Source of the DNA: a virus
Lineage: Duplodnaviria; Heunggongvirae; Uroviricota; Caudoviricetes
Length of the DNA: 64,000 bases
Reading direction: 5' to 3' (one strand)
IMG/VR virus record: IMGVR_UViG_3300027792_000307
Coordinates: 866 to 64,865 of that record
Position 1 is the stretch's first letter, and each line of letters begins with the position of its first letter. A model generated the notes under the pieces. The model was given only the letters and a program-made list of their open reading frames with translations, was not told the origin of the DNA and did not search any database. Made by a program: the position numbers and the translations under genes. Shown piece by piece: positions 8,935-42,627 of the stretch.

Positions 8935-9177
8935 ATGGAACAAATAGAATATAAAGGGCAAAAATATAGAGTAAAATACACACATATAAGACCAATTTTG
9001 AATGGTAAAATACAATCGAGAGGCGGTACGACAGTTGCATTTATAACGGATAGAGAACAAAATGTGATTGCAAGCGGTCAGGCAAATGTATCTTTAAAGG
9101 ACACTTACCAGAAAAAATTGGGAAGGATTATAGCAACTGGCAGATTATTAAAGGCACTTGGATTACCACGAAAATGA
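8935..9177 (+). CDS. hypothetical protein (weak resemblance to phage N4 gp49 / Sf6 gp66-type small proteins); first gene of the contiguous small-gene array
   Basis: 80-aa ORF, aaggagggaaaattATG; ..TTVAFITDREQNVIASGQANVSLKDTYQKKLGRIIATGRL.. Resemblance is from memory only. Confidence 0.5.
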   Translation: MEQIEYKGQKYRVKYTHIRPILNGKIQSRGGTTVAFITDREQNVIASGQANVSLKDTYQKKLGRIIATGRLLKALGLPRK

Positions 9178-9401
9178 AATACGCAAAATTAACTATGAAA
9201 CAACCAAGCGATTCAATAAAAATAAAATGGGTTGAAATAATTAAGGTTTTAAAAGACGATAGATTTCCAACTTGTATAAAAGGAAAATGCCTAATGTGTA
9301 ATGCAGATAAAGAAGATGTTGGAAGAACCTTTTATTATGATAAAAAATATTGGGATGTAATTACTTTAACAAAAGAGCAGGTTTTTATGGAGATGATATG
9401 A
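9174..9401 (+). CDS. small protein with stereotyped LE(V/I)L-junction C-terminus (array member; tail VFMEMI)
   Basis: ATGA overlap at both ends; 3' end gtttttatggagatgatATGA. Confidence 0.55.
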   Translation: MKYAKLTMKQPSDSIKIKWVEIIKVLKDDRFPTCIKGKCLMCNADKEDVGRTFYYDKKYWDVITLTKEQVFMEMI

Positions 9402-9598
9402 ATAAATTTGAGATAAATGATTATATTAGACTCAAATACGCCCAAGATTATATTGGAGTAATAATAGGAATGAGATACGAATGTAATAAGCACTATGTAT
9501 ATAGAGTTGCATTTATTAAGAATTCAAAGGTATCATTTGAAGATGAAATAGACCTTATTAAACTTACCGAGCAAGAATTATTTATGGAGATATTATGA
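9398..9598 (+). CDS. small protein, LEVL-junction array member (tail LFMEIL)
   Basis: Start in ATGA overlap; 3' end ttatttatggagatattATGA. Confidence 0.55.
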   Translation: MNKFEINDYIRLKYAQDYIGVIIGMRYECNKHYVYRVAFIKNSKVSFEDEIDLIKLTEQELFMEIL

Positions 9599-9846
9599 AT
9601 AAATACAAGTATAGTGTAAAGAATTTAAAGGTTGGAGATTGGATAGATTCTACAGATTATTGGAATATGAGATATCTATATAAAGTTTTATTTATAAAAA
9701 AAAAGATATATATGACTTTAAATTGTTATATAATTAGAAACAACTCACCAGAAAATTTAGGAATAACTAAACATCGTATTAATTATTTCGATGAAAATCA
9801 ATTTAAAGTAATAGACGAATCGGAAGCATTTCAATGGTTTATATAA
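9595..9846 (+). CDS. small protein, array member (N-terminal KVGDWI motif; degenerate tail AFQWFI)
   Basis: ATGA-overlap start; N-terminal ..LKVGDWIDS.. shared with other members. Confidence 0.5.
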   Translation: MNKYKYSVKNLKVGDWIDSTDYWNMRYLYKVLFIKKKIYMTLNCYIIRNNSPENLGITKHRINYFDENQFKVIDESEAFQWFI

Positions 9847-9855
9847 GGAAAAATT

Positions 9856-10083
9856 ATGAAAATAGGCAGGATTGTAAGATTAACTTGGAAAGAAGATAAA
9901 CATTATATAGTTATTCTTCAAGTAAAAACAAAGGATACCAGAATGAAACCTGTTACTTATTCTGGAATTGTAATTTCTAATCCAGAAAGGGATACATATA
10001 TTGGCGAAGAATTTTGGTTTAATAGTCGTTATTGGAATATAGAAATATTAAAAAAAGATAAGGCATTTTTGGAGATATTATGA
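9856..10083 (+). CDS. small protein, array member (tail AFLEIL)
   Basis: 3' end gcatttttggagatattATGA overlapping next start. Confidence 0.55.
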   Translation: MKIGRIVRLTWKEDKHYIVILQVKTKDTRMKPVTYSGIVISNPERDTYIGEEFWFNSRYWNIEILKKDKAFLEIL

Positions 10084-10277
10084 AAGAAGCATTATATTTT
10101 GGGAATTTTTGGTTTGAAAATGCCTATTCTAACAGAGGAACATGTAGGATATGCAACGAAAAAATTAAAAAGGACGAAGGATTATTAGTTGCTTGGTTTA
10201 ACAATAGAAGATGTGCAATTCATTCAAGACATTTTAACGAGGAAATTAGGAATGAAATTTTAATACATATGTTGTGA
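10080..10277 (+). CDS. small Cys/His-containing protein, array member (tail ILIHML)
   Basis: ATGA-overlap start; CRIC..(n)..C..H. Confidence 0.5.
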   Translation: MKEALYFGNFWFENAYSNRGTCRICNEKIKKDEGLLVAWFNNRRCAIHSRHFNEEIRNEILIHML

Positions 10278-10425
10278 GGTAATATGCACACACTAATTAC
10301 TAAATTCGATGCAGGATATAGATTTTACAGGGATACAAGATATGGTAATTTTCATTTGATTTGTTACCTATATAAGTATCTATCAGTTATATCTCTTTGG
10401 ATATGGGTTAAATCTGGGGGGAATT

Positions 10426-10695
10426 ATGAAACGAGTTAGTAAATACAAATTAGAGAATGGAAAAATCTATAAAATATGGAATAAAAGGTTGGGCGAATTA
10501 ATAATTTTCAAGATACTTTCTGAAAGTATAAGAGAATTATATGATGGGTGTATTGATGTTAATAAGACACATATTTATATAAGAAAACAAGATAATAAAA
10601 TTTACACGCAAAATGAGGAAATGGATTTAAAGATATTTAAAGATGACACTTTATATGAATTGTCCGAGTTGCAATTATTTGGGGAACTTTTATAG
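10426..10695 (+). CDS. small protein, array member (tail LFGELL)
   Basis: gggggaattATG SD; junction-type C-terminus. Confidence 0.5.
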   Translation: MKRVSKYKLENGKIYKIWNKRLGELIIFKILSESIRELYDGCIDVNKTHIYIRKQDNKIYTQNEEMDLKIFKDDTLYELSELQLFGELL

Positions 10696-10701
10696 GAGAA
10701 A

Positions 10702-11358: not shown

Positions 11359-11520
11359 ATGGAAATAGATATATGGGCGTTATTCATAACATTATTTACG
11401 GTTGCTTTATTGCAGGAATTAATCATAAAACCATTGGTAGAATTTCTAAAGGAATACCTGAAAAAATACTACAAGAAATCTAAACGGCACATTAAGAAAT
11501 TAATTAAGGAGGAATTATGA
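11359..11520 (+). CDS. small hydrophobic membrane protein (53 aa)
   Basis: Hydrophobic N-terminal helix; ends ggaggaattATGA overlapping next start. Confidence 0.4.
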   Translation: MEIDIWALFITLFTVALLQELIIKPLVEFLKEYLKKYYKKSKRHIKKLIKEEL

Positions 11521-11765
11521 GGAAAGTAAAACCACAGGATATAAAGGTTGGACAAATATATTTACAGATTATTGGTTTCACTAAATTGTATAAAAAAAGA
11601 ATTAGTAAAGGAAATGAAGATGAAATATGGGGTAATTATATTAAAACAGATAGACCAAATTGTTATCCAAAAGGAGAACATGGATTTGTAAGGTATGATA
11701 GTGGTGCAGAATTTTATCTATTAAATGAAAAGGAAATTGGGGAATTATTTTTTGAGGAAATATAA
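11517..11765 (+). CDS. small protein, array member (paralog A of a recent tandem duplicate; MRKVKPQDIKVGQIYLQ..)
   Basis: First 18 aa almost identical to next gene; tail LFFEEI. Confidence 0.65.
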   Translation: MRKVKPQDIKVGQIYLQIIGFTKLYKKRISKGNEDEIWGNYIKTDRPNCYPKGEHGFVRYDSGAEFYLLNEKEIGELFFEEI

Positions 11766-12016
11766 TGAGGAAAGTAAAACCACAGGATATAAAGGTTGGG
11801 CAAATATATCTACAGGTTATGGGAGAAACTAAACTATATAAGAAACGAATTAATAAAGGAAAAAAAGATGAAATATGGGGATATTATATTACATCAAACA
11901 AAAACTATTTTTTTCCTAAAGGAGAAGATGGTTTCGTACCCTATAATAGTACCGATGCTAAATTTTATCTATTAAATGAAAAGGAAATCGGAGAATTGTT
12001 TTTGGAGGAATTATAA
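11765..12016 (+). CDS. small protein, array member (paralog B of tandem duplicate)
   Basis: MRKVKPQDIKVGQIYLQ.. and ..FYLLNEKEIGELF.. shared with 11517..11765; tail LFLEEL. Confidence 0.65.
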   Translation: MRKVKPQDIKVGQIYLQVMGETKLYKKRINKGKKDEIWGYYITSNKNYFFPKGEDGFVPYNSTDAKFYLLNEKEIGELFLEEL

Positions 12017-12235: not shown

Positions 12236-12526
12236 ATGGGAAAGAAATTTATTCTTGGAGAAAATGAAGATAGAGATAAAAAATTAACTGGAAAGATTAT
12301 ATGGTTTAAGGGAAGAAAAATTGATAGTAAAACTATCTTTAGAACGGGAATAGCAAAAGTTAAGGGAGTAGAAACAGGAATGGATGGTCTTCGTATATAT
12401 ATTGATATGATAACTGAATTATCAAAAGAGCATACAAATGATTTTAGTTCATTTGAATGGGAAATACATAAAGGAGATGAAGTAGAAATATTAACTAAAA
12501 AAGAGGCATTTCTCTATCAATTATAG
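12236..12526 (+). CDS. small protein, array member (tail AFLYQL)
   Basis: 96-aa ORF; junction-type C-terminus (gaggcatttctctatcaattatag). Confidence 0.5.
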   Translation: MGKKFILGENEDRDKKLTGKIIWFKGRKIDSKTIFRTGIAKVKGVETGMDGLRIYIDMITELSKEHTNDFSSFEWEIHKGDEVEILTKKEAFLYQL

Positions 12527-12535
12527 GAGATTAAT

Positions 12536-12802
12536 ATGTTGCCAAAATCAAAATTCAAGGAAGGATATTATTATTACGTAGATTTTGTATCAGCCCATTT
12601 TTTAGAAAAAGTTTGCTTTATTGCTCAAATAGAAAAAATAGACGGAGAATTTATTCACTATAAAATTATAAACTCTTATGAATCTGGTAAAAGAGTTTGG
12701 AAAGAAAATGAATGTGGAGTTATGGAAGTTGGCTCAATGCATTATAAAGGAATTAAGGCAGTAGAAAAAGAAAAGAAGGATTTATTCTTATATATTTTAT
12801 GA
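12536..12802 (+). CDS. small protein, array member (tail LFLYIL)
   Basis: aggagattaatATG SD. Confidence 0.5.
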   Translation: MLPKSKFKEGYYYYVDFVSAHFLEKVCFIAQIEKIDGEFIHYKIINSYESGKRVWKENECGVMEVGSMHYKGIKAVEKEKKDLFLYIL

Positions 12803-13080: not shown

Positions 13081-13302
13081 ATGATTAAAATTGGAGATTG
13101 GTATAGATGTCCTACACATTCGTTAATCGAGCAAGAATTTATGAGTAAATATTATTCTCCATTTAAAATCATAGATATAGAGGAAAGTATGTGCACTTGT
13201 AAAGGTCATAATTCGGGTTTTACTTGGCGTTGGAGTAAAAACTATATCAAAGCGTGTTGCAAAAAAATGACAAAAGGACAGGTATTTGAAGGAATGTTGT
13301 AA
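13081..13302 (+). CDS. small Cys-rich protein, array member (tail VFEGML)
   Basis: KIGDWYRC N-terminus; several Cys. Confidence 0.5.
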   Translation: MIKIGDWYRCPTHSLIEQEFMSKYYSPFKIIDIEESMCTCKGHNSGFTWRWSKNYIKACCKKMTKGQVFEGML

Positions 13303-13554
13303 ATGAAACGATTAAAGCAATCAAAAGAGATTAAAAAGGACGACTATATTAAAGCAATAAATAACCGAGGGAAATATATTGTTTTTAACTGCTTGGATAG
13401 TAGATACCCAAACACTGCTCTTATTTTAGATACCGATATAGCAGGGTTAGAAACAATGATAGGAAAGACCGAATATTTAAGTAAATTCGCACTCGAACAC
13501 GAATTTAAGTTATATAGGTTAAATAAGTTCGAAAAATGGCAATATATACTATAA
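13303..13554 (+). CDS. small protein, array member
   Basis: Immediately follows previous stop (gttgtaaATG). Confidence 0.5.
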   Translation: MKRLKQSKEIKKDDYIKAINNRGKYIVFNCLDSRYPNTALILDTDIAGLETMIGKTEYLSKFALEHEFKLYRLNKFEKWQYIL

Positions 13555-13749: not shown

Positions 13750-14022
13750 ATGAGATATAAGATATTAAAACCAAATCATTACTACCGATTTACATATAAA
13801 GAAGGTAAGAATTTATGTAAGGCATATTACTTACATTTTTCTCACTATTCGGAACGGACTAAATTTATAAACGTATTTAAGGCATATAAAGTAAACCATA
13901 ATGGAAATATAAATAAATTTGGCACGAGAGAATTATTATTAAAACCCTACAGAAAAAATAGATATGCAAAGGAAATAACAGAAGAAGAATACGAACAGGG
14001 AGTTATGCTTGAGGTATTATGA
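13750..14022 (+). CDS. small protein, array member (tail VMLEVL)
   Basis: ATGA overlap with next gene. Confidence 0.55.
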   Translation: MRYKILKPNHYYRFTYKEGKNLCKAYYLHFSHYSERTKFINVFKAYKVNHNGNINKFGTRELLLKPYRKNRYAKEITEEEYEQGVMLEVL

Positions 14023-14267
14023 CGAACGTGAAGGTTGGTAAATACTATATGTTTACTTATAACTCCCCAAAATATGTAAAATTAATATATTGTAAAATTT
14101 TAGAAAAGACTAAAAGTTCCTTTTATATTAGAGGTTTTAGTATTGACCATGAAGATAGATTTTTTAAACATAATTATAGTTTAATTCCATTAATAAATCG
14201 AGATAGAAACATAAAAGAAATAACAGAAGAAGAATTCGAACGGGCAACCATGTTGGAGATGATATAA
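14019..14267 (+). CDS. small protein, array member (tail TMLEMI; shares EITEEE(F/Y)E internal motif with previous gene)
   Basis: ..KEITEEEYEQGVMLEVL vs ..KEITEEEFERATMLEMI: adjacent paralogs. Confidence 0.6.
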   Translation: MTNVKVGKYYMFTYNSPKYVKLIYCKILEKTKSSFYIRGFSIDHEDRFFKHNYSLIPLINRDRNIKEITEEEFERATMLEMI

Positions 14268-14463: not shown

Positions 14464-14676
14464 ATGGAATTTGAAATTGGGGATTATGTTAGAATTAAGG
14501 TTCATTATTTAGCAAATCCAGATAATTGGAGAGGAAAAATAGTAAATAGAAAGATGAATTTCGACCAGTTTGGTTTACCATTCTATGTGTATAAAATTAT
14601 GATTAAAGATGGAAGAATTGCACATGAAATGGATTGCGATTTAGAGAAAATTGACTGGTTATTGGAGGAATTATGA
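14464..14676 (+). CDS. small protein, array member (IGDYVRIKV N-terminus; tail WLLEEL)
   Basis: ATGA overlap at 3' end (ttggaggaattATGA). Confidence 0.55.
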   Translation: MEFEIGDYVRIKVHYLANPDNWRGKIVNRKMNFDQFGLPFYVYKIMIKDGRIAHEMDCDLEKIDWLLEEL

Positions 14677-14918
14677 TAGAATTTAAAGTGGGGAGTTTCT
14701 ATAAGTTTATTCCCACAAATATAAAAAAAGGATTCTATATATGCAAAGTGTTGGAAGAAAGGAAAGACCTATATATAGTTGAGGTTATTTACGATAAAGA
14801 TGAGAGTAGTACAAGATTTGAAGTAGGAAAGATACTTAAATTTTCAAAAGATAGAGATAATATAAAACCACGAACTGAATATATCAAAGAGGAAGATGTT
14901 TTTCTGGAGGTATTATGA
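14673..14918 (+). CDS. small protein, array member (KVGSFYKF; tail VFLEVL)
   Basis: 3' end gtttttctggaggtattATGA. Confidence 0.55.
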   Translation: MIEFKVGSFYKFIPTNIKKGFYICKVLEERKDLYIVEVIYDKDESSTRFEVGKILKFSKDRDNIKPRTEYIKEEDVFLEVL

Positions 14919-16029: not shown

Positions 16030-17160
16030 ATGGAAGTATTTGAAGTAAACCACCAAGAACTTAAAGCATTCATTAAGAAATGCTATACAAGCAAATTGCC
16101 ACTACATATGTGGGGCACTATTGGAATTGGAAAATCTGAATCTGCCGATGAGGTTGCTAATGAATTGGCAGGGGAGTTCCAACGAAAATATGTTAAATGG
16201 AACAAACTGACGAAAGAGGAAAAGCACAAACTCGCAGAAAATCCAAAGGATTATTTCTTCTTTATGGATATTCGGTTGTCTCAATTAGACCCGAGTGATT
16301 TAAGAGGATTACCTGCACTGAATGGGCACGATACAGTAGAGTGGAAAATTCCATTCTGGTTACACGTAGCAACCCTGAAAGATGCCAAAGGAATTATCTT
16401 CTTTGATGAGATGAACCTTTCTCCACCGAGTATTCAAGCGAGTGGGTATCAGGTAATTCTTGACCGAGCATTAGGAGAGGTTACATTAGCAGACGGTGTT
16501 GGTGTAATCGCAGCAGGTAACAGGATTACAGATAAAGCAAATGTCTATGATATGGCAAAACCACTACAAAATCGGTTCAACCACGTTACCTTGAAAGTTC
16601 CAAACATCGAGGCATGGACATCTTGGGCAATTACCAAAGGAGTTGATACAAGAATAATTACATTCCTTAATGCACGACCACAACTTTTAATGGGTCGGTT
16701 GGATATGAAATCTGGAGATGTGGCATTTCCAACTCCGAGGACTTGGGGTAAATATTGTAGTGCCTTGATTAACGGAGAGACTGGGTTGGATAATCTTATG
16801 CAATTAGCCAGTGCATCTGTTGGAACAGGGGCAGCGACAGAATTTATCAGTTTCATTAAGTTGCAAAAGCAAATCAACTTACAGGAATTGCTAAAGAAAC
16901 CTGAAACGGCAACCAACATCAAGGAAACCGATATGTTATATTCGTTGGTCGGTTTAGTTTCAGAGTGGTATGATGCACATACCAAAGCCGATGACTTGGA
17001 TAAAGTTCTACAAATATCCAACAACCTACAGCCAGAGTTTGCTATCCTTATGCTTCGTATGTGTAAGGAACGACACCTGCCACAATTCAGACGAGATGTA
17101 AACAAATTGGATTCGTGGAAAATAACGTGGAAAAAGTATGGGAAATACTTTGAAATTTAA
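16030..17160 (+). CDS. MoxR-like AAA+ ATPase (AAA_5 type)
   Basis: Walker A GTIGIGKSE, Walker B IIFFDEMNL, sensor-1 AAGN read directly. Partner VWA protein lies 1.2 kb downstream, as in MoxR-VWA pairs. Confidence 0.75.
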   Translation: MEVFEVNHQELKAFIKKCYTSKLPLHMWGTIGIGKSESADEVANELAGEFQRKYVKWNKLTKEEKHKLAENPKDYFFFMDIRLSQLDPSDLRGLPALNGHDTVEWKIPFWLHVATLKDAKGIIFFDEMNLSPPSIQASGYQVILDRALGEVTLADGVGVIAAGNRITDKANVYDMAKPLQNRFNHVTLKVPNIEAWTSWAITKGVDTRIITFLNARPQLLMGRLDMKSGDVAFPTPRTWGKYCSALINGETGLDNLMQLASASVGTGAATEFISFIKLQKQINLQELLKKPETATNIKETDMLYSLVGLVSEWYDAHTKADDLDKVLQISNNLQPEFAILMLRMCKERHLPQFRRDVNKLDSWKITWKKYGKYFEI

Positions 17161-17398
17161 GATAGGAGACTATGTTCTCCTATCTAATCCCTGTGTTCCA
17201 CGATTTTTTATGACAGTTGGAAGGATTGTTAGTATAACTCCAAGAGGATTTTACGAGGTAAAATTATTAAATGGAAATCCTTACTTAAATAATATCCATT
17301 TACCAAAGGGTATTCATTGGACAAATACTAATGTTTATATGTTAGCAAAAGAAATGACTAAATTGACGGAAGAAGAATACCTAATCGAGGCATTATGA
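17138..17398 (+). CDS. small protein, array member (KIGDYVLL; tail YLIEAL)
   Basis: N-terminal KxKIGDYV motif; ATGA overlap at 3' end. Confidence 0.55.
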   Translation: MGNTLKFKIGDYVLLSNPCVPRFFMTVGRIVSITPRGFYEVKLLNGNPYLNNIHLPKGIHWTNTNVYMLAKEMTKLTEEEYLIEAL

Positions 17399-17607
17399 AA
17401 TCTAAACCAAAGTATAAAGTGGGGGATTATATACTTGTCCTCCGTTCCCAAAATCCTTATTTGATTTGTAAAATTAAAAAATTATATTCTTACATATTAG
17501 ATGAAATCGTTTATGTTGTTGAGTTTCCAAATGGAAATGAAGGATATTTAAGTGAAGAACAAATGAGAAAAATCAGCAAGGAAAGATACTTTTTAGAGGC
17601 ATTATGA
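17395..17607 (+). CDS. small protein, array member (KVGDYILV; tail YFLEAL)
   Basis: ATGA overlaps both ends. Confidence 0.6.
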   Translation: MKSKPKYKVGDYILVLRSQNPYLICKIKKLYSYILDEIVYVVEFPNGNEGYLSEEQMRKISKERYFLEAL

Positions 17608-17813
17608 AATTCAAAGTTGGCGACCACGTTAGAATAATAACAAAAGAATACGGAGATTTGTGGTATAATAAAGTTGGAACAGTAAAGGATATTTATACAA
17701 ATGAACAAGTTTCTATTGATGTAGAACATTTATCAGAAAAATATTTTGGTGCATTTTTTGAAAGAGAATTAAAAAAAATATCAAAGCAGGAATATTTCCT
17801 TGAGGTATTATAA
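17604..17813 (+). CDS. small protein, array member (KVGDHVRI; tail YFLEVL)
   Basis: Close paralog of previous two (..KISKQEYFLEVL vs ..KISKERYFLEAL). Confidence 0.6.
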   Translation: MKFKVGDHVRIITKEYGDLWYNKVGTVKDIYTNEQVSIDVEHLSEKYFGAFFERELKKISKQEYFLEVL

Positions 17814-18094
17814 TGCCGTATGTTATTAGAAATAAGGTAACTGGTTGGTTCTGGTATTCCGATAAATTTCAAAGGGCAAAAACATTTAGAAGTTTAACAG
17901 CAGCAAAATGTGCTTTAACATCTTTTATTGGAGATACCTACTACTTAAGGAATTGTAAGAAGTTAAAAGGAAAACCAGAAAGGGAACAACTCGAAAGATT
18001 TAGAATAAAAAGAGATGAATGGGAAATTATAGAGGTAGAATTAAAAATAGTAGATGAAGAAGTAGCAAAAAGAATATTTTTGGATATGTTATAA
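17813..18094 (+). CDS. hypothetical protein (tail IFLDML)
   Basis: 93-aa ORF; taATG right after previous stop. Confidence 0.5.
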   Translation: MPYVIRNKVTGWFWYSDKFQRAKTFRSLTAAKCALTSFIGDTYYLRNCKKLKGKPEREQLERFRIKRDEWEIIEVELKIVDEEVAKRIFLDML

Positions 18095-19669: not shown

Positions 19670-19874
19670 GTACTTTAAGATTAGTTATGAAGGTGGAGAT
19701 TATTTTATAGTAAAAGAATTACCAAATCATAAATGGATTATTATATATTCTATTGTGGATGAAATTTTCCATAATCTTCAAGTCCAACATTATTTATACG
19801 ACCCGTTAAATTATGGAGTGAAAAGAGAGGAAATATCTGAAGCCGAAGCACAAATGGAGATTATGTTAGGATGA
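19638..19874 (+). CDS. hypothetical protein
   Basis: 78-aa ORF; start uncertain (overlaps upstream gene by ~30 nt). Confidence 0.4.
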   Translation: MWFTLIGKKIRYFKISYEGGDYFIVKELPNHKWIIIYSIVDEIFHNLQVQHYLYDPLNYGVKREEISEAEAQMEIMLG

Positions 19875-20137
19875 AAAGAACCAAAACAAAATTTAAGGTC
19901 GGAGATATAGTATTAATTTATAGATATAAGGAAGACATGTCTTTTGGATTTGCACATCTTATGGAAGAATGGGTTGGGAAAGTTGGGAGAATAATAGAGG
20001 TTACTTCTAATAAAGGTTATAAAGATGCCTATAAAATAGAAGCTATTAATTGGGAACCAGAAGATAGTAATTGGACTTGGGATGAATCTGTAATAAAAAA
20101 ACTATCAGATAAGGAAGCATTTCTGGAGTTAATATGA
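19871..20137 (+). CDS. small protein, array member (KVGDIVLI; tail AFLELI)
   Basis: ATGA overlaps; 3' end gcatttctggagttaatATGA. Confidence 0.6.
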   Translation: MKRTKTKFKVGDIVLIYRYKEDMSFGFAHLMEEWVGKVGRIIEVTSNKGYKDAYKIEAINWEPEDSNWTWDESVIKKLSDKEAFLELI

Positions 20138-20400
20138 TATTAAAGGTTGGTCATTACTATAAAACTACAAGAGTAAGAAAGGGACATTGGATGAAAGACC
20201 TCTTTATAAAGGTAGTTTCCTTAAATGAACATGGAAGCGAAGCAGAATATCCTCTTCAATATACCTTGGATTCTTTTGGTTATCATAATAGACCAACAAA
20301 AGGACGTACCTGGCATATGAGTGAACGATTTTGCTCTATCTATTTTAAGGAAATCACAAAGGAAGAATATGATACCGAGTGGTTATTGGTGAATCTATGA
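20134..20400 (+). CDS. small protein, array member (KVGHYYKT)
   Basis: ATGA-overlap start. Confidence 0.5.
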   Translation: MILKVGHYYKTTRVRKGHWMKDLFIKVVSLNEHGSEAEYPLQYTLDSFGYHNRPTKGRTWHMSERFCSIYFKEITKEEYDTEWLLVNL

Positions 20401-20663
20401 GATTAAAGGGAAGATATATTTTAACGACCAACGATTTTAAGTTGTTATTTAAATGCAACGAGGTTCTTGAAAGGCACAAAACAAGCGAAGGCATAGATTA
20501 TTATATATCTGCACACATATATAGATATAATAACACATACAGTAATATTGAGGGAACACCCAAAAATCAAAACAGAAAGTTATTTTTATTTACAGATAAA
20601 AATGATAAACCTCTGGACTGGGTTTTTCTTACGAGGAATGAATTCCTTGTGGAGTTATTATGA
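20397..20663 (+). CDS. small protein, array member (tail FLVELL)
   Basis: ATGA overlaps both ends. Confidence 0.5.
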   Translation: MRLKGRYILTTNDFKLLFKCNEVLERHKTSEGIDYYISAHIYRYNNTYSNIEGTPKNQNRKLFLFTDKNDKPLDWVFLTRNEFLVELL

Positions 20664-20935
20664 AATTAGAAAGAAACAAATGGTATTTAATAAGTAGTAA
20701 ATATATAGAAGAAAAAACAGGGAAAAGGATAGTTGCCGCAAAGTTTATTGGAGGAGAATCTATTCTTATGTCTTGGGAGTTATCAATACCAATAGAACAT
20801 CCAGCAAGGCATAACGGAGAAGTTATTGTAAATCGTATACTATATAAAGGAAGAATGGGATATTGTGTTTATATAGAACCAGAACGAGTTATAAGAAAAC
20901 TTACAAAGATGGAAGCATTTTTGGAATCACTATGA
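20660..20935 (+). CDS. small protein, array member (tail AFLESL)
   Basis: 3' end gcatttttggaatcactATGA. Confidence 0.55.
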   Translation: MKLERNKWYLISSKYIEEKTGKRIVAAKFIGGESILMSWELSIPIEHPARHNGEVIVNRILYKGRMGYCVYIEPERVIRKLTKMEAFLESL

Positions 20936-21171
20936 AAAAAGAGAAAATTAAAGTTGGGGATTATGTTAGGATAATAAAACCAGATACCATAATTGAAGGA
21001 GATAACTATTTTACAGCGGGGAAAGATAAAATAGCAAAAGTAGTACTCTTAAGGAAAGGAGATTGTAGATATAAAGTACAATTTTTAGAGAGAGTTTTTG
21101 CAGTGGAGATATACAGCGATAGTGAAGTAAAAAAATTGACCGATGTAGAGATATTTATGGAGATATTGTGA
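20932..21171 (+). CDS. small protein, array member (KVGDYVRI; tail IFMEIL)
   Basis: Canonical N- and C-terminal family motifs. Confidence 0.6.
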   Translation: MKKEKIKVGDYVRIIKPDTIIEGDNYFTAGKDKIAKVVLLRKGDCRYKVQFLERVFAVEIYSDSEVKKLTDVEIFMEIL

Positions 21172-29099: not shown

Positions 29100-29452
29100 C
29101 GACAGGACAATTTGCTATATGTGATTGCTGTAAAAGAATTGTTGCCACAGAAAAATGTGAATTATGTGGGGGAGATATGTGTAACAACCATACTACTTTT
29201 ATAGCATTAAATGTTGGTGACTCTTCAGATTGTGAATTTGGATTTATTTTTCAAAGTAGTTTGGGGGATATGAAGATATGCACTAATTGTAGAGATAGAT
29301 TAAGAAAATTCGGAGAATGTATAAAATCTGCCTTAAATATAGGTAGACATAATGAACAGAGAGCAACAAAAGACCAACGGAAAATAAGGAAGGAGATATG
29401 TAATAAGATATTATCAATAGTTTACGAGGAGGAAAAGGTGTTCGTAATATGA
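29096..29452 (+). CDS. Cys-rich (B-box-like) hypothetical protein
   Basis: CDCCKR..CELCGGDMCNNH..C..C. Confidence 0.5.
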   Translation: MTTGQFAICDCCKRIVATEKCELCGGDMCNNHTTFIALNVGDSSDCEFGFIFQSSLGDMKICTNCRDRLRKFGECIKSALNIGRHNEQRATKDQRKIRKEICNKILSIVYEEEKVFVI

Positions 29453-29661
29453 GAGTAGGAAAATATTATAGAGTTACAAACAAAAGACTTAAAGAGGAAT
29501 TCGTTTTAAAATGTATTGGTAAGAATTTGGTGTATCTTTATTGGAGAAATACTCCAAGAAATGCTAGCCCACATTATCTTGGAGAATGTGAATTTCCTTA
29601 CGAGGAAGGAGATGTGGAGATAGAGCTAAAGAAAACCCAGGTATTTATGGAAGTGATATGA
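29449..29661 (+). CDS. small protein, array member (tail VFMEVI)
   Basis: ATGA overlaps both ends. Confidence 0.55.
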   Translation: MRVGKYYRVTNKRLKEEFVLKCIGKNLVYLYWRNTPRNASPHYLGECEFPYEEGDVEIELKKTQVFMEVI

Positions 29662-29927
29662 TGGATAAAATGATAGGAAAGTTTATAAGAGATAAGGAAA
29701 CCGGAGATATAGGACAAATAATTGAATTAAAGGATTATACATATGGATGGAGATACAAAAAGAAAAGGATATACTATCTGATAAGATGGATTCATTTTGA
29801 AGATAAGTCTTGGCACAAGTCAATTAGAAAAGAGAATTACGCTCAATACACACCAGAAAACATATCTGAACCAAATGGTAGGTTCGAGATATTAACTGGC
29901 AGCGAGGCAATGTTCTATGTCATTTAA
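29658..29927 (+). CDS. small protein, array member (degenerate tail)
   Basis: ATGA-overlap start; followed by 145-bp intergenic region. Confidence 0.5.
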   Translation: MMDKMIGKFIRDKETGDIGQIIELKDYTYGWRYKKKRIYYLIRWIHFEDKSWHKSIRKENYAQYTPENISEPNGRFEILTGSEAMFYVI

Positions 29928-37418: not shown

Positions 37419-37709
37419 ATGGAAATAAAAGAGTTATGTAAGAGGGCACACGAAACAGCAGCTAAAAAAGGATTTTGGAAAGAACCGAGGGCAATTTCTG
37501 AATTACTTATGCTTGTAGTTACTGAATTGGGAGAAGCTTGTGAGGCTGATAGAAAAGGGGACGAGGCTAACTTCCGAGAAGAAATAGCTGATACATTCAT
37601 ACGTTTATTTGATATGGTTGAAGCATTGGATATTGATATCGAGGAAGAAATTCTTAAGAAGATGAAAATTAATGAAGGAAGGCCGATGAAGCATGGGAAA
37701 CGGTACTAA
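37419..37709 (+). CDS. MazG-like nucleoside triphosphate pyrophosphohydrolase
   Basis: ELGEACEA..(n)..EEIADTFIRLFDM..IDIEEEILKKMKINEGR matches MazG EExxE/D motifs; taaggagggaacATG SD. Confidence 0.7.
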   Translation: MEIKELCKRAHETAAKKGFWKEPRAISELLMLVVTELGEACEADRKGDEANFREEIADTFIRLFDMVEALDIDIEEEILKKMKINEGRPMKHGKRY

Positions 37710-37923
37710 ATTTAGGATAAAACAAAGACCTGGGCATTCAAATAGTTCAATTACCTTCTATTGTGTATGTAAAAAAGTTCCATTACTTCCTTTATATATA
37801 GAAGAAGAATCGTTTATTAAATTAAAAGATGCTATAGAAAAGAAAAAAGAGTTGATGGAAAGAAAAGGAAAAATAAAAAGTAAGTGGATAACAGAAGAGG
37901 AACAATTTGCGGAGATATTATGA
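37693..37923 (+). CDS. small protein, array member (tail QFAEIL)
   Basis: 3' end caatttgcggagatattATGA. Confidence 0.5.
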   Translation: MGNGTKFRIKQRPGHSNSSITFYCVCKKVPLLPLYIEEESFIKLKDAIEKKKELMERKGKIKSKWITEEEQFAEIL

Positions 37924-38183
37924 TAGAAGAAGAATATCCAAAATATAAGATAAAAAAAGTATATAGTTCATTATATCCTTCATATAGAATATACATTCTT
38001 CATGAAAAAGAAGTCGGCTTTTTTAATAAGAGAATTGAAAGAGAATATAAGGTGCATTGGGCTAGTCTAGATTTTCCAACTTTAAATGCAGCGATTGAAC
38101 AACTTAAGAGAATAAAGGAAGCTGATGAAAAGAAAGATGGAGAGTGGATTACTCCCGAAGAACTTATGTTGGAGCAACTATGA
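37920..38183 (+). CDS. small protein, array member (tail LMLEQL)
   Basis: ATGA overlaps both ends. Confidence 0.5.
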   Translation: MIEEEYPKYKIKKVYSSLYPSYRIYILHEKEVGFFNKRIEREYKVHWASLDFPTLNAAIEQLKRIKEADEKKDGEWITPEELMLEQL

Positions 38184-38801: not shown

Positions 38802-39381
38802 GAAGGACTTACTTGTAGTTGAGGAATTCATTGAATGTGGAGACTACTTGCTCTCCGATGGTTATGCCGTGGAAAGAAAGACAATACAAGATTTTATTGC
38901 TTCTATTTCAGATAAACGATTGTTTACTCAATTAAACTCTCTAATTCAATACGAAAATCCTATACTTGCTATTATTAACGACAACAAATGGGAAGCGTTC
39001 TATTTTTGCCGTAATAGATATATCCATTCAGTATATTTAGGAACATTAACAACTATCCTATTAAGTTACCCAAAGGTTAAAATAATGCAATTCGACACGG
39101 AAAACGAGTTCGTATCGTTCCTTGCTTCACTTGAAAAGAAACTCAATGAAGATGGAAAGCACCACGAAAGACCAAAATTACTATTAAGAAAACCGCAGAG
39201 TTTACAAGATAGAAAAGAGAACTCCTTGACCTGTGCCAAAAGCATTGGTATAAAGACAGCAAAACTCTGCCTCGGAAGTTACAAAACAATTGATGATATA
39301 TGTAGGGCTTCGCCTAAAGAACTCGAGGCTATATTAGGAAAAAAAGCAGCGGAGAATTTATATGAACTCCTCCATAAATAA
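38749..39381 (+). CDS. ERCC4-type (Hef/XPF/Mus81-like) nuclease with C-terminal helix-hairpin-helix
   Basis: MIVDSREP start, GDYLLSDGYAVERKTIQDF (ERK..D catalytic motif), C-terminal IGIKTAKLCLGSYKTIDDICRASPKELEAILG (HhH). Confidence 0.7.
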   Translation: MIVDSREPKQIIQKLKGKKDLLVVEEFIECGDYLLSDGYAVERKTIQDFIASISDKRLFTQLNSLIQYENPILAIINDNKWEAFYFCRNRYIHSVYLGTLTTILLSYPKVKIMQFDTENEFVSFLASLEKKLNEDGKHHERPKLLLRKPQSLQDRKENSLTCAKSIGIKTAKLCLGSYKTIDDICRASPKELEAILGKKAAENLYELLHK

Positions 39382-39610
39382 AATAAAAGTAGGACAGATA
39401 AGAATTAGAGACATAAGTAGGAATAATTCAGAAAGAAAATTTGTATTCAAAATAATAAAAAAAGATAAATTTTCATATCACATTAGGGTAATGAAAAACG
39501 ATTGGTTTGATAATTATAGTTATCAATACGATATAAATATATATGAAGACGATTATTTTGATGATACCCATATAATAACTAAAAAACAAGCATTTATGGA
39601 ATTAATATGA
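39362..39610 (+). CDS. small protein, array member (KVGQIRIR; tail AFMELI)
   Basis: Family motifs both ends. Confidence 0.55.
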   Translation: MNSSINKIKVGQIRIRDISRNNSERKFVFKIIKKDKFSYHIRVMKNDWFDNYSYQYDINIYEDDYFDDTHIITKKQAFMELI

Positions 39611-39780
39611 AAAAATATTATAGATGGATAACAAGAAACGGAACCCTATTATATATTTATAGTATAGATGGACTAAATATAAAGGCAATATATTCTGATA
39701 TGTTCGCTGAATGGCCGCAACCTTGGGATTATTTAGAAGAAGAAATAACTAAAGAAGAAGCATTTATGGAGATGATATGA
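39607..39780 (+). CDS. small protein, array member (57 aa; tail AFMEMI); below the 60-aa track cutoff
   Basis: ATGA overlaps at both ends; 3' end gcatttatggagatgatATGA. Confidence 0.5.
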   Translation: MKKYYRWITRNGTLLYIYSIDGLNIKAIYSDMFAEWPQPWDYLEEEITKEEAFMEMI

Positions 39781-40617: not shown

Positions 40618-40620
40618 ATT

Positions 40621-41145
40621 ATGAGTTATAGACCTGTATGTGATGTCTGGCTTTTAGCTAGACCAAAAGTGAAATACTATGGAAGTTATCCAAATGGATT
40701 TCTTGAGCGAGCGAGAACATTACTTGGATGTTCAACAGATGACCCCATACTCCACGTATGTGGAGGAATGGCAAAGGCATATCCTAATAAGAAAGCCTAC
40801 GGACCAAATGACAAAACCTTGGATATAGACCCAGCATTACAACCAGATTTCTGCCAGGATGTAAAGAAAGGAATTCCTCACGGAGATTGGAAGGCAATTC
40901 TAATAGATCCACCTTATACATTAGATGATGCTAGGCACTATAACCAATTCAACGGATTTTTACCAGAACCCAACGAATTAGTTCGGAACGCGATTAATTC
41001 AGTGGCAATCGGTAGATGTGTCGGATTATTACATTATATCGTTCCTGCTTGCCCAAAAAATGCCAAAGAGGTCGCATTAGTTGCGGTTTGTATGGGACAC
41101 AATAATAGAATACGGTGTTTTTCCGTATTTAGGAGAACTGAATGA
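40621..41145 (+). CDS. DPPY-motif DNA amino-methyltransferase (N6A/N4C type), short
   Basis: AILIDPPY read directly (motif IV of amino-MTases); VCGGMA possible SAM motif. Confidence 0.5.
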   Translation: MSYRPVCDVWLLARPKVKYYGSYPNGFLERARTLLGCSTDDPILHVCGGMAKAYPNKKAYGPNDKTLDIDPALQPDFCQDVKKGIPHGDWKAILIDPPYTLDDARHYNQFNGFLPEPNELVRNAINSVAIGRCVGLLHYIVPACPKNAKEVALVAVCMGHNNRIRCFSVFRRTE

Positions 41146-41813
41146 AAGAAAGTAAATTCAACCCGATGGGTATGAAAAAGCAAGATTTGGCTGTGCTATT
41201 CACAGAACATTGTAAGCACGGACATTTATACGCTGAACACCCTGCCTGTTACCTGGCAGAACACGAAGACAAACTTAAGATAGGATTTTTGGACATCGAG
41301 ACCTCCAATTTGAAGGCAGATTTTGGAATTATGCTATCTTATTGTATCAAAGAAGCAAACAACAAGAAAATCCTTGGACGAGCAATAAATAAGAAAGAAC
41401 TCGACAATGGAACCCTCGATAAGGATTTAGTTAAGGAATGTATAGCGGATGTAGGAAAATTTAACCTAATAGTTACCTACTATGGCACGAAGTTCGATGT
41501 CCCATTTATTCGCTCGAGGGCATTATATTGGGATATAGAGTTTCCAAAGTTTGGTAGTCATAATCATAAAGACTGCTATTATATGGTCCGTAATAGATTA
41601 TGTATCCATAGAAACAGAATGGAAGATGCGGCGAGATTACTCGGCATAGAAGGAAAGAACCACATAGATGGATATTATTGGATTACAGCATTAACTGGAA
41701 ATCCGAAGGCACTAGCATATATTCTGGACCACAACGAAAGAGATGTAGAAGTTCTCGAGAAAGTATACTATAAAATGAAGGACTTCTCAAGAGATGTTAG
41801 TAAGAGTATCTAA
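41142..41813 (+). CDS. RNase H-like 3'-5' exonuclease (YprB/PolB-exonuclease-like)
   Basis: IGFLDIETSNL (Exo I-like DIET) and YYGTKFDVPFI (YNG..FD.P-type motif). Confidence 0.6.
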   Translation: MKESKFNPMGMKKQDLAVLFTEHCKHGHLYAEHPACYLAEHEDKLKIGFLDIETSNLKADFGIMLSYCIKEANNKKILGRAINKKELDNGTLDKDLVKECIADVGKFNLIVTYYGTKFDVPFIRSRALYWDIEFPKFGSHNHKDCYYMVRNRLCIHRNRMEDAARLLGIEGKNHIDGYYWITALTGNPKALAYILDHNERDVEVLEKVYYKMKDFSRDVSKSI

Positions 41814-41819
41814 TAATAG

Positions 41820-42020
41820 ATGATAATTGAAGAATTCCCATATAATTTTGGAGTTCCTCCACGAGATATGGTTTTTATCTGGTTCCACAAGAAAGACCTG
41901 GAACCGGACTATATCTTAACTATTGATGAATTCAATGGAGTTAAAAAAATCCTTGGTAAAGATTACAAAAAAGTTTCACTTGAAGAATTTAAAATGGCTT
42001 ATATGGCGGAATTAATATGA
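41820..42020 (+). CDS. small protein, array member (tail YMAELI)
   Basis: ATGA overlap 3'. Confidence 0.5.
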   Translation: MIIEEFPYNFGVPPRDMVFIWFHKKDLEPDYILTIDEFNGVKKILGKDYKKVSLEEFKMAYMAELI

Positions 42021-42229
42021 CAGTTTTAAAAAAAGATTTAAAGAATGGAGCATATTATAGATTTGTAAATCATAGTACTAATTATTTTAAGTTTATTAAA
42101 ATGGGAAAGAATAAAGAATATCCTCTTATATTTAGAGAACCGAGTGGAAGACAATTAGAATGGTCTTTATCTGTATTAGAGATGATAACACCTTTAACAG
42201 AATTAGAGTATTTTCTGGAGGTATTATGA
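42017..42229 (+). CDS. small protein, array member (tail YFLEVL)
   Basis: 3' end tattttctggaggtattATGA. Confidence 0.55.
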   Translation: MTVLKKDLKNGAYYRFVNHSTNYFKFIKMGKNKEYPLIFREPSGRQLEWSLSVLEMITPLTELEYFLEVL

Positions 42230-42417
42230 ATTCCATTGTATTATATAACGAAACTGGAGAAACACTAATTACTATCCACGATGAATTAGAAGTAACTTTA
42301 TCCAATGGGATTAAGTTTATAGTAACACAAGAAGATATACAGAAATTTTGCGATGAGGGCATAGAGAAAATACATACAAAGGATTTATATGATTTTGTAT
42401 TAATAAATAGATTATAG
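42226..42417 (+). CDS. hypothetical small protein
   Basis: ATGA-overlap start. Confidence 0.45.
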   Translation: MNSIVLYNETGETLITIHDELEVTLSNGIKFIVTQEDIQKFCDEGIEKIHTKDLYDFVLINRL

Positions 42418-42426
42418 GTTGATATT

Positions 42427-42627
42427 ATGATTTTTAATAGAAGAATAAGATTATCCAAATTAATAACAACAGATACTCAAAGTTGTAAATCTTGGAATCA
42501 CCCCAGAAAGAATATAAATGAAAGAATATTTATTACTTACGATGAAATTAAAGACTTATTAAGTAGAGGAATAGACCGAGTTAGCGTAAAAGAATTAGAA
42601 ATGTATTTATTTGAAATGAGGTTATAA
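42427..42627 (+). CDS. hypothetical small protein (tail LFEMRL)
   Basis: 66-aa ORF. Confidence 0.45.
   Translation: MIFNRRIRLSKLITTDTQSCKSWNHPRKNINERIFITYDEIKDLLSRGIDRVSVKELEMYLFEMRL

What the first reader, a model, noticed from the sequence alone, without database searches (positions are those of the whole stretch)
9174..42627. Array of >40 small paralogous genes whose conserved C-terminal codons double as the ribosome-binding site and overlapping start codon of the next gene
At least 45 consecutive or clustered 60-110-aa genes (9.2-23.4 kb, 26-30 kb, 37.7-39.8 kb, 41.8-42.6 kb) end in ..(E/K)E(A/V/I)F(L/M)E(V/I/L)(L/I)-stop. The DNA is a near-constant junction, about GCATTTYTGGAGRTATTATGA. 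The GAG-GT(A) of the Leu-Glu-Val codons is a GGAGG-type Shine-Dalgarno sequence; the TTA-TGA of Leu-stop contains the next ATG. Bodies are highly divergent: many begin MK(F)KVGDYVRI (SH3/Tudor-like feel), some are zinc ribbons. The unifying constraint is therefore the junction. The C-terminal peptide motif may be a by-product of translational coupling, or the conserved 20-25-nt junctions may be homologous-recombination sites that duplicate and shuffle cassettes. Such a large, rapidly diversifying tandem array is typical of counter-defence or host-range cassettes, but nothing here resembles a described family.
Basis: seen in the sequence. Interest (0 to 1): 0.88.

Follow-up and report, generated by a model that had tools for sequence, protein, structure and literature searches.

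The report
Viral small-barrel gene array, coupled translation
An uncultivated large virus devotes about a quarter of the genes in this window to one fast-evolving family of tiny beta-barrel proteins, and the codons of their conserved end-helix have been tuned to double as the ribosome-binding site and start codon of the next gene; the coupling trick is ordinary, but the family has not been described.

Summary
I count 41 small genes (50-106 aa, 7.6-42.2 kb, all + strand) that end in a hydrophobic/Glu/hydrophobic/Leu-Ile tail. A strict tail pattern hits 32 of 160 genes, against 0.12 expected, and 0 of 252 minus-strand ORFs.

28 of the 41 overlap the next start (ATGA or TAATG). In those, residue -3 is Glu in 27 and its codon is GAG in 23, against a 22% GAG background. 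The preceding codon ends in G in 23 of 28. This puts GGAG 5 nt before the ATG. Codon choice departs from the background towards rarer codons only at -4 and -3; codons -2 and -1 are enriched in A-ending codons. At -5 to -10 there is no clear departure.

The tail is not a by-product of the junction:
- It persists in 13 members with a spacer, where -3 is mostly Tyr or Trp and a separate SD follows the stop.
- It persists in a distant lineage that ends in ALAWLI with no internal GGAG.
- It contains a Thr/Ser-x-x-Glu helix cap.
- AlphaFold models it as the C-terminal helix after an SH3/Tudor/Sm-like barrel (pLDDT 86 and 92).

Junctions are only 66% identical, so they make poor recombination sites, although related strains do differ by whole cassettes. 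No Pfam, PHROG, NCBIfam or PDB sequence match was found. The protein function is unknown.

The parts
7611..7841 (+). Family member, 76 aa, tail DLMLELL. Spacer of 12 nt with its own AGGAG; Glu is GAA.
   Evidence: HMM; junction table
9174..9401 (+). Member, 75 aa, tail QVFMEMI. ATGA overlap; ATG-GAG.
9398..9598 (+). Member, 66 aa (KVGD-type body), tail ELFMEIL. ATGA; ATG-GAG.
9595..9846 (+). Member, 83 aa, tail EAFQWFI. Spacer of 9 nt; -3 is Trp.
9856..10083 (+). Member, 75 aa, tail KAFLEIL. ATGA; TTG-GAG.
10426..10695 (+). Member, 89 aa, tail QLFGELL. Spacer of 12 nt; the TAG stop plus GAG forms the next SD; Glu is GAA.
11517..11765 (+). Member, 82 aa, tail ELFFEEI. TAATG overlap; GAG-GAA.
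11765..12016 (+). Member, 83 aa, 72% identical to the previous gene (recent tandem duplicate), tail ELFLEEL. TAATG.
12236..12526 (+). Member, 96 aa, tail EAFLYQL. Spacer of 9 nt (TAGGAG); -3 is Tyr.
12536..12802 (+). Member, 88 aa, tail DLFLYIL. Spacer of 39 nt; -3 is Tyr.
13081..13302 (+). Member, 73 aa, Cys-rich body, tail QVFEGML. The next ATG abuts the stop.
13303..13554 (+). Tail-only member, 83 aa, tail EKWQYIL. Spacer of 10 nt with AGGAG.
13750..14022 (+). Member, 90 aa (GxYY-type body), tail GVMLEVL. ATGA; CTT-GAG-GTA.
14019..14267 (+). Member, 82 aa, tail ATMLEMI. TAATG onto a 27-aa ORF. AlphaFold model 2.
14464..14676 (+). Member, 70 aa (KVGD type), tail DWLLEEL. ATGA; TTG-GAG-GAA.
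14673..14918 (+). Member, 81 aa, tail DVFLEVL. ATGA; CTG-GAG-GTA.
17138..17398 (+). Member, 86 aa (KVGD type), tail EYLIEAL. ATGA.
17395..17607 (+). Member, 70 aa (KVGD type), tail RYFLEAL. ATGA.
17604..17813 (+). Member, 69 aa (KVGD type), tail EYFLEVL. TAATG.
17813..18094 (+). Tail-only member, 93 aa, tail RIFLDML. Spacer of 11 nt with AGGAG.
19871..20137 (+). Member, 88 aa (KVGD type), tail EAFLELI. ATGA. AlphaFold model 1.
20134..20400 (+). Member, 88 aa, tail EWLLVNL. ATGA; TTG-GTG-AAT (GGTGA-type SD).
20397..20663 (+). Tail-only member, 88 aa, tail NEFLVELL. ATGA; GTG-GAG.
20660..20935 (+). Member, 91 aa, tail EAFLESL. ATGA; TTG-GAA.
20932..21171 (+). Member, 79 aa (KVGD type), tail EIFMEIL. 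TGATG overlap; ATG-GAG.
23119..23355 (+). Member, 78 aa, tail EVFLEIL. End of the array block (125-nt gap); Glu is GAA.
25999..26319 (+). Member, 106 aa (KVGD type), tail EIFCEVL. 2-nt gap; GAG-GTA still serves as the SD.
26950..27240 (+). Tail-only member, 96 aa, tail GIFLYML. Spacer of 8 nt (TAGGAG).
27817..28104 (+). Member, 95 aa (KVGD type), tail ELFFWLL. Spacer of 11 nt; -3 is Trp.
28116..28343 (+). Member, 75 aa, tail EAFLEML. ATGA.
28340..28585 (+). Member, 81 aa, tail NEFLVELL. ATGA.
28582..28857 (+). Member, 91 aa, tail EIFLELL. ATGA.
28854..29099 (+). Tail-only member, 81 aa, Cys-containing body, tail EIFMEEL. ATGA.
29449..29661 (+). Member, 70 aa, tail QVFMEVI. TGATG overlap; ATG-GAA-GTG.
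29661..29927 (+). Tail-only member, 88 aa, tail EAMFYVI. End of block (145-nt gap).
37693..37923 (+). Tail-only member, 76 aa, tail EQFAEIL. ATGA; GCG-GAG.
37920..38183 (+). Tail-only member, 87 aa, tail ELMLEQL. ATGA; TTG-GAG.
39362..39610 (+). Member, 82 aa, tail QAFMELI. ATGA; ATG-GAA.
39607..39780 (+). Member, 57 aa, tail EAFMEMI. ATGA; ATG-GAG.
41868..42020 (+). Tail-only member, 50 aa, tail AYMAELI. ATGA.
42017..42229 (+). Member, 70 aa, tail EYFLEVL. ATGA; CTG-GAG-GTA.

Best explanation
The array is a lineage-specific multigene family, expanded in tandem, in a large uncultivated dsDNA virus (source contig up to 155 kb; all genes on one strand; host unknown, with an archaeal-virus flavour).

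The protein. Each gene encodes a 50-106-aa small beta-barrel of the SH3/Tudor/Sm type. A conserved C-terminal amphipathic helix follows the barrel and starts with a Thr/Ser-x-x-Glu capping box: ...K-[LI]-[TS]-x-x-E-x-[FM]-[LM]-E-[IVLM]-[LI]. The tail is therefore conserved because it belongs to the fold. That is shown by conservation patterns and by the models.

The overlay. In this lineage a translation signal has been laid on top of the tail. The codon at -4 is chosen to end in G and the Glu at -3 is GAG, which gives GGAG(G) 4-5 nt upstream of an ATG. That ATG is built from the last Leu/Ile codon (NNA) and the TGA or TAA stop. Ribosomes that finish one gene would reinitiate on the next (translational coupling). 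The statistics show the signal; the coupling itself is inferred.

Where -3 is Tyr or Trp, no SD can be embedded. Those members instead have an 8-12-nt spacer with their own SD.

Growth and turnover. The family gains and loses members by duplication and unequal recombination between neighbouring paralogues, so related strains differ by whole cassettes. The strain differences are shown; the mechanism is inferred.

Function. The proteins are most likely expendable, fast-evolving binding modules made from the replication-gene region that act on host or viral macromolecules (host take-over or counter-defence). This last step is inference only.
For: Family and excess over chance.

Protein-level tail:
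- It is kept in 13 spaced members of the window.
- It is kept in L013, where about 25 members end in EALA(W/Y)LI with the SD in spacers or a -13 overlap.
- It is kept in L092/L093, with GAA as often as GAG.
- It is kept in small full-length hits from other metagenomes.
- AlphaFold gives five strands plus a terminal helix for two different body types: pLDDT 86.3 and 91.9, and about 92-95 over most of the helix, dropping to 72 for the last two residues of model 2.

Embedded SD:
- Background GAG is 22%; overlapped members have GAG 23 to GAA 4 (p = 5e-12).
- Glu occurs in 27 of 28 overlapped members against 4 of 13 spaced ones (p = 1.8e-5).
- The -4 codon is NNG in 23 of 28 against 3 of 13 (p = 5e-4).
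- Codon choice departs from the background towards rarer codons only at -4 and -3, and codons -2 and -1 are enriched in A-ending codons.
- Pooled with relatives L006-L011: coupled GAG 51 to GAA 7; spaced GAG 1 to GAA 10.
- The spacer of 5 nt matches the free-standing genes of the genome.
- Non-family ATGA junctions embed the SD in other frames and have unrelated C-termini.

Turnover and speed:
- L008 and L009 are 98-99% identical but differ by whole cassettes.
- L006, L007 and the window have different cassette content and order.
- Family orthologues are 49-64% identical where the neighbouring 59-aa gene is 91-93% identical and the ATPase DNA is 82% identical.
- 11517 and 11765 are a 72%-identical tandem pair.

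General background: -4 and -1 are the commonest spacings of coupled genes, and an SD influences coupling (PMC12548453).
Against: - Common descent of all 41 bodies is not shown by sequence. With the last 14 aa removed, HMMs link only 10 members and six pairs.
- Only two members were modelled. I could not inspect coordinates, so the packing of the helix on the barrel rests on pLDDT and secondary structure.
- In sister lineages L092/L093 most junctions are ATGA overlaps without GAG or NNG enrichment. An embedded SD is therefore not required for this gene arrangement.
- Glu at -3 is common there for protein reasons too.
- There are no expression data, and host and function are unknown.
Confidence: 0.72

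Rival explanations
1. The C-terminal peptide is merely a by-product of the nucleotide junction: SD plus overlapping start dictate ...L-E-V-L, and the proteins share nothing else.
For: - NNG-GAG-GNN-NNA-TGA does read as [L/M/V]-E-[V/A/E]-[L/I].
- Glu at -3 and NNG at -4 track the junction type.
- Body-only HMMs fail to unite most members.
Against: - The conserved tail is 12 residues long, including the T/S-x-x-E cap and Phe at -5, where codon usage matches the background.
- It persists in spaced members, in L013 without any internal GGAG, and in L092/L093 with GAA.
- Other ATGA-coupled genes of the same genome have unrelated ends.
- Two AlphaFold models place the tail as a confident helix after the barrel.
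Confidence: 0.07
2. The conserved junctions are recombination sites. Short homologies at gene boundaries let cassettes be duplicated, deleted and shuffled within and between co-infecting genomes, and this need maintains the junction sequence.
For: - Near-identical strains L008 and L009 differ by insertion or deletion of whole cassettes. One breakpoint sits in a shared ATATGAAAAAAGT junction or N-terminal tract.
- Homology blocks between L006, L007 and the window start or end within about 10-25 nt of junctions, and cassette order differs.
- Assemblers left 100-N gaps at or near cassette junctions.
- The virus encodes a Rad51/RadA-like recombinase, an ERCC4 nuclease and a Cas4-like nuclease.
Against: - Junctions are only 66% identical over 24 nt, with no shared exact tract of 20 nt or more.
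- Synonymous sites at -5 to -10 show no homogenisation.
- The L008/L009 deletion of the 92-aa cassette is explained by a crossover inside two 74%-identical paralogues.
- Selection removes any rearrangement that breaks an ORF, so gene-unit boundaries are expected anyway.
- Some of the 'indels' are scaffold gaps.
Confidence: 0.15
3. The C-terminal helix is a shared docking or sorting tag. It could be recognised by the MoxR-like AAA+ ATPase and VWA/metallopeptidase pair that sits inside the array in all relatives, by a packaging or secretion route, or by a host hub. The bodies would then be diverse cargo or effectors.
For: - The tail is the only sequence feature common to all members, and it also occurs on Cys-rich bodies.
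- The ATPase (16030-17160) and the DUF2201 protein (18392-19669) are embedded in the array in the window and in L008-L011, L013, L092 and L093.
Against: - AlphaFold models the tail as a confident helix that completes the domain, not as a free peptide.
- 78 of the 80 loci returned by the genome scan for this ATPase (most of them with 30-36% identity, many inside bacterial contigs) have no family member; the exceptions are L012 and L013.
- No protein longer than 140 aa in the window carries the strict tail.
Confidence: 0.06

Closest known systems
Translationally coupled overlapping genes (ATGA and TAATG junctions with the SD inside the upstream ORF), as in many bacterial, archaeal and phage operons (review PMC12548453)
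   Same: The -4 and -1 overlaps, an SD a few nt upstream inside the preceding ORF, and long same-strand gene strings.
   Different: Here one protein motif, repeated about 28 times, carries the signal. The same helix codons (NNG-GAG-NNN-NNA-TGA) are therefore reused as a standard junction. Where the helix has Tyr or Trp instead of Glu, the genome switches to a spacer with its own SD.
Chromo-barrel and Tudor domains (e.g. MRG15, PDB 2f5k) and Sm/LSm small beta-barrels (e.g. LSm5, PDB 3swn)
   Different: Sequence identity is 8-22%. No conserved aromatic cage or Sm motifs are seen. These are stand-alone viral proteins, and the helix is C-terminal with its own conserved motif.
Pfam SH3-like families DUF1918 (PF08940) and SH3_15 (PF18346), and multi-repeat proteins such as P0131
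   Same: A 'MKFKVGDxVxV ... Y.V.F' N-terminal barrel signature. P0131 strings three such units in one polypeptide, joined as ...LELVTEEEKV|MKFKVGD.
   Different: No window member reaches any Pfam gathering score. The conserved helix tail is not part of those models.
Expanded multigene families of large viruses and arrays of small early genes in large phages (from general knowledge, not tested here)
   Same: Many tandem, fast-diverging paralogues with copy-number differences between strains.
   Different: Those families have no sequence relationship to this one. Their roles in host range or counter-defence were shown by experiment; here such a role is only a guess.

Membership tests
Translational coupling by overlap (termination-reinitiation) | The stop of the upstream gene overlaps or abuts the start of the downstream gene (-4 or -1 nt). 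| tested here: met
   28 of 41 members have ATGA, or TAATG/TGATG. The window-wide spacing mode is -4 (45 junctions).
Translational coupling by overlap (termination-reinitiation) | An SD-like element at a working distance inside the upstream ORF. | tested here: met
   GGAG lies 5 nt before the ATG. Synonymous bias is confined to those codons.
Translational coupling by overlap (termination-reinitiation) | Downstream translation depends on translation and termination of the upstream ORF. | not testable with these tools
   This needs reporters or ribosome profiling.
Tudor / chromo-barrel domains | A five-stranded SH3-like barrel. | tested here: met
Tudor / chromo-barrel domains | A conserved aromatic cage that binds methylated Lys or Arg. 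| tested here: not met
   Alignments A1 and A3 have no invariant or nearly invariant column apart from Met1.
Tudor / chromo-barrel domains | A sequence match to the Pfam models above the curated cut-off. | tested here: not met
   Only sub-threshold hits to SH3_15, GPKOW_C, KN17_SH3, BAH and similar models.
Sm/LSm | Sm1 and Sm2 sequence motifs, or a match to the LSM Pfam model. | tested here: not met
   No LSM hit in the Pfam scan of 32 members. The resemblance is by fold only.
Sm/LSm | Assembly into hexameric or heptameric rings that bind RNA. | not tested
   No multimer prediction was available.
Site-specific cassette systems (integron- or shufflon-like) | A dedicated site-specific recombinase next to the array. 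| tested here: not met
   Pfam and PHROG scans of the larger neighbours show an ATPase, DUF2201, Rad51-like protein, ERCC4, Cas4-like nuclease, PolB and RNR, but no integrase or invertase in the window.
Site-specific cassette systems (integron- or shufflon-like) | Conserved recombination sites of defined sequence or structure at every cassette boundary. | tested here: not met
   Junctions are 66% identical and the longest shared exact tract is 19 nt. Conservation is explained by the peptide plus the SD and ATG.
Described viral protein families (PHROGs) and NCBIfam | A significant profile match. | tested here: not met
   Best PHROG hit 7e-5 over 34 residues for one member; nothing for most. NCBIfam gave nothing. 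The PDB profile search gave nothing.

The most novel reading that the evidence does not exclude
The standardised boundary works as a plug-and-play cassette interface. The boundary is the helix tail with its embedded SD, the overlapping stop and start, and the conserved 'MK(F)KVGD' N-terminus. Under this reading, short-homology recombination, promoted by the virus's own Rad51-like, ERCC4 and Cas4-like enzymes, swaps whole binding-module genes within and between co-infecting genomes without ever disturbing expression. The result would be a rapidly reshuffled repertoire of host-targeting or counter-defence proteins in a possibly archaeal virus clade.
Probability: 0.12. Interest if true: 0.7.

Novelty: new member of a known kind. 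Interest (0 to 1): 0.4.

Why it matters
The array is a clean natural example of two codes sharing the same bases. A structural helix and a ribosome-binding site occupy the same 12 nt, about 28 times in one genome. The genome also carries internal controls: paralogues with a spacer, and sister lineages with other solutions. These show which residue gives way to the translation signal (Glu against Tyr/Trp at -3) and which residues do not.

It also flags an undescribed family that makes up about a quarter of the genes in this part of a large uncultivated virus. A profile search of a 1.84-billion-protein library found only 111 proteins at E <= 0.001, of which about 70 are small full-length proteins; the rest are long multi-repeat proteins. 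The family evolves faster than its neighbours and varies in copy number between strains. That makes it a reasonable place to look for host-interaction or counter-defence functions.

None of this changes how translational coupling or small beta-barrels are understood.

Tried and rejected
- Pfam, PHROGs and NCBIfam scans and a PDB profile search of members gave no family.
- The DNA polymerase against cultured phages gave only 22-24% identity to cyanophage gp43 and haloarchaeal virus polymerases, so there is no close cultured relative.
- Host identification failed. There are no tRNAs. Related contigs are binned into Saccharibacteria, Actinomycetota (at 31% GC) and Iainarchaeum MAGs, which contradict each other and probably reflect mis-binning. 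Cluster names gave nothing.
- Sigma-70 promoter-like and terminator-like sites in 7-27 kb are not enriched over shuffles. Rfam found nothing.
- Body-only HMMs seeded from six pairs did not grow.
- A dN/dS comparison of tail against body was dropped, because orthologue pairs are too few and too divergent. I used codon usage conditional on the amino acid instead.
- The idea that the tail is a tag shared with large proteins was rejected: no protein longer than 140 aa in the window matches the strict tail.

Full report
**What the window is.** All credible genes beyond about 3.6 kb lie on the + strand. GC is about 30-35%, and -4 nt is the commonest spacing between genes (45 junctions). Larger genes encode:
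- a family-B DNA polymerase, a Rad51/RadA-like ATPase and a ribonucleotide reductase;
- a MoxR-like AAA+ ATPase followed by a DUF2201 metallopeptidase/VWA protein;
- an ERCC4+HhH nuclease, a Cas4-like nuclease and a LAGLIDADG endonuclease;
- a C5 methylase, a glycosyltransferase and a cohesin-dockerin protein.

The polymerase has no close relative among cultured phages (22-24% identity). Identical proteins occur on metagenomic contigs of up to 155 kb from JGI and Logan samples. This is therefore a large uncultivated dsDNA virus. The host is unknown: there are no tRNAs, and related contigs sit in mutually contradictory MAG bins. The ERCC4, Rad51-type and zinc-ribbon content gives an archaeal-virus flavour, but that is only an inference.

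- An iterative HMM seeded with seven members converges on 32 genes, with no hit among shuffled or reversed decoys.
- Nine further small genes have the tail only.
- A strict tail pattern hits 32 of 160 genes, against 0.12 expected, and 0 of 252 minus-strand ORFs.
- 28 of the 41 have the next ATG overlapping the stop.
- The DNA is a degenerate consensus (...GAR nnn TTY nTG GAG nTA TTA TGA), not a near-constant repeat. Mean identity over the last 24 nt is 66%, and no pair shares 20 exact nt.

**Protein or nucleotide constraint?** Both, and they can be separated.

Protein level:
- The conserved block spans about 12 residues, K-[LI]-[TS]-x-x-E-x-[FM]-[LM]-E-[IVLM]-[LI]. The Thr/Ser-x-x-Glu part reads as a helix N-capping box; that is my reading of the sequence.
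- AlphaFold gives a five-stranded barrel followed by a terminal helix for two members with different body types. 19871-20137 has pLDDT 86.3 with helix 80-87. 14019-14267 has pLDDT 91.9 with helix 70-81.
- The tail survives where there is no overlap. This holds for 13 members in the window. It holds for about 25 members in the distant lineage L013, which end in EALA(W/Y)LI and place the SD in 8-16-nt spacers or use a different, -13 overlap. It also holds for members of L092/L093, where Glu is GAA as often as GAG.
- Other genes of this genome that use ATGA overlaps end in unrelated ways and embed the SD in other frames.

The peptide is therefore not a by-product of the junction.

Nucleotide level:
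- I conditioned on the amino acids and drew codons from the genome's own usage. Codon choice then departs from the background towards rarer codons only at -4 and -3. Codons -2 and -1 are enriched in A-ending codons. Positions -5 to -10 show no clear departure; -8 and -10 are borderline at p about 0.03-0.04.
- In overlapped members the Glu codon is GAG 23 times and GAA 4 times, against a 22% GAG background (p = 5e-12).
- The -4 codon ends in G in 23 of 28 overlapped members, against 3 of 13 spaced ones.
- With relatives L006-L011 the pooled counts are GAG 51 to GAA 7 when overlapped, and 1 to 10 when spaced.
- The resulting GGAG lies 5 nt before the ATG. That is the mode for overlapped starts, and it falls within the 5-9 nt seen at free-standing genes.
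- One residue does yield to the signal. Position -3 is Glu in 27 of 28 overlapped members but in only 4 of 13 spaced ones, where Tyr or Trp dominates (7 of 13; p = 1.8e-5). Those spaced genes are followed by their own SD, often built on the stop codon (TAGGAG).

Dependence of downstream translation on upstream termination remains inferred from general knowledge of -4/-1 coupling (PMC12548453).

**Are all members one family?** Probably, but this is not proven. With the last 14 residues removed, profile searches join only the ten 'KVGDYVRI' members and six separate pairs. The case for common descent rests on three things: the full-length profile, the shared tail, and the same predicted architecture in two subgroups.

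**Distribution.**
- A profile search of 1.84 billion representative proteins finds only 111 hits at E <= 0.001. About 70 of them are small full-length proteins with the same N-terminal 'KVGD' strand and a tail such as SKEEA(M/F)LE(L/M)L or EALAWLI.
- The other hits are long proteins with repeated SH3/Tudor-like units.
- Contigs carrying a 43-81% identical ATPase show that the array is a trait of a whole virus clade. L011 has at least 23 members in 21 kb, and L013 has about 25.
- Of the 80 loci returned by the genome scan for this ATPase, only L012 and L013 carry the family. Most of the others have 30-36% identity, and many lie inside bacterial contigs.

**Turnover.**
- L008 and L009 are 98-99% identical over shared DNA but differ by whole cassettes.
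- One junction shows the shared tract ATATGAAAAAAGT at both ends of the extra cassettes.
- Another difference is best read as a crossover inside two 74%-identical neighbouring paralogues. Some of the differences coincide with 100-N scaffold gaps, so they are uncertain.
- L006, L007 and the window share a 59-aa gene at 91-93% identity, but they differ in which cassettes follow it and in what order. Family orthologues are only 49-64% identical.
- This fits fast evolution and gain or loss of whole gene units.
- It does not show that the junction itself is the recombination substrate. Junction identity is low and there is no synonymous homogenisation outside the SD.

**Function.** Nothing here tests it. 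The small size, the barrel fold used widely for binding peptides and nucleic acids, the speed of divergence, the copy-number variation and the location among replication genes all make host take-over or counter-defence binders a reasonable guess. I hold that part at about one in four.

**Verdict.** It is wrong that the junction is the unifying constraint. The recombination idea is weakly supported. The family is new as a sequence family, while its fold, its tandem expansion and its coupling mechanism are all known kinds.

Noticed in passing
L013 14241-15451 (MAG contig JADBLP010000075.1): In this distant lineage the next gene's ATG sits inside the Ala-Trp codons of the tail (TTA GCA TGG TTA ATC TAA). 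This gives a -13 overlap and the N-terminus MVNLKFK(V/I)GD. It is a second, independent way of overlapping the same helix with the next start.
   Followed up: partly
L092 and L093: In these sister lineages most family junctions are ATGA overlaps, but the Glu is GAA as often as GAG, and the -4 codon is GTN (motif ...MVELL). No obvious embedded SD is present, so how reinitiation works there is open.
   Followed up: partly
window 5763-6684: A 922-nt stretch has no ORF of 38 aa or more, no tRNA and no Rfam match. It contains a T-arm-like GGTTCGATTCC near 6616. It may be a regulatory or origin region.
   Followed up: partly
L006 1417-1479 vs window 14463-14525: These 63 nt are 100% identical, while the flanking cassettes are about 70% identical. 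The 14464-type and 14673-type cassettes are in opposite order in the two genomes. This is either a recent exchange or a chimeric short contig.
   Followed up: partly
L008 2397-2496, 5602-5701, 9404-9503; L009 3806-3905, 9109-9208: 100-N scaffold gaps fall at or next to cassette junctions. These arrays therefore break short-read assemblies, and copy numbers in metagenomic contigs are lower bounds.
   Followed up: no
window 10693-10707, 12524-12535, 27238-27248: At several spaced junctions the TAG stop codon is itself the first part of the next gene's SD (TAGGAGA).
   Followed up: no
protein P0131 (307 aa): Three copies of the same 'MKFKVGDKV...' barrel unit are fused in one polypeptide and joined as ...LELVTEEEKV|MKFKVGD. 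There are weak DUF1918 hits. It looks like an in-frame version of the array.
   Followed up: partly
window 23481-24155 and 24194-24652: A signal-peptide-like protein with cohesin and type-I dockerin domains, and a paralogue of it without the dockerin, interrupt the array.
   Followed up: partly
window 16030-17160 and 18392-19669: A MoxR-like AAA+ ATPase and a DUF2201 metallopeptidase/VWA protein lie inside the array, here and in every relative examined. Distant homologues of the ATPase occur in many loci, many of them inside bacterial contigs, without the small-gene family.
   Followed up: partly
window 25772-26011 and 49068-49250: Two zinc-ribbon proteins share a 64%-identical 22-residue N-terminus (M..CSICG.RTIF.VW). 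This is a second, small paralogous set.
   Followed up: no
window 38722-39381, 34521-35372, 50336-50872, 50874-52013: An ERCC4+HhH (XPF/Hef-like) nuclease, a Rad51/RadA-like ATPase, a Cas4-like PD-(D/E)XK nuclease and a LAGLIDADG endonuclease. This recombination toolkit has an archaeal or eukaryotic flavour.
   Followed up: partly
window 1-3600: GC is higher here (0.37-0.40) and there is no convincing + strand gene string, unlike the rest of the window. The boundary of a different genome module may lie here.
   Followed up: no
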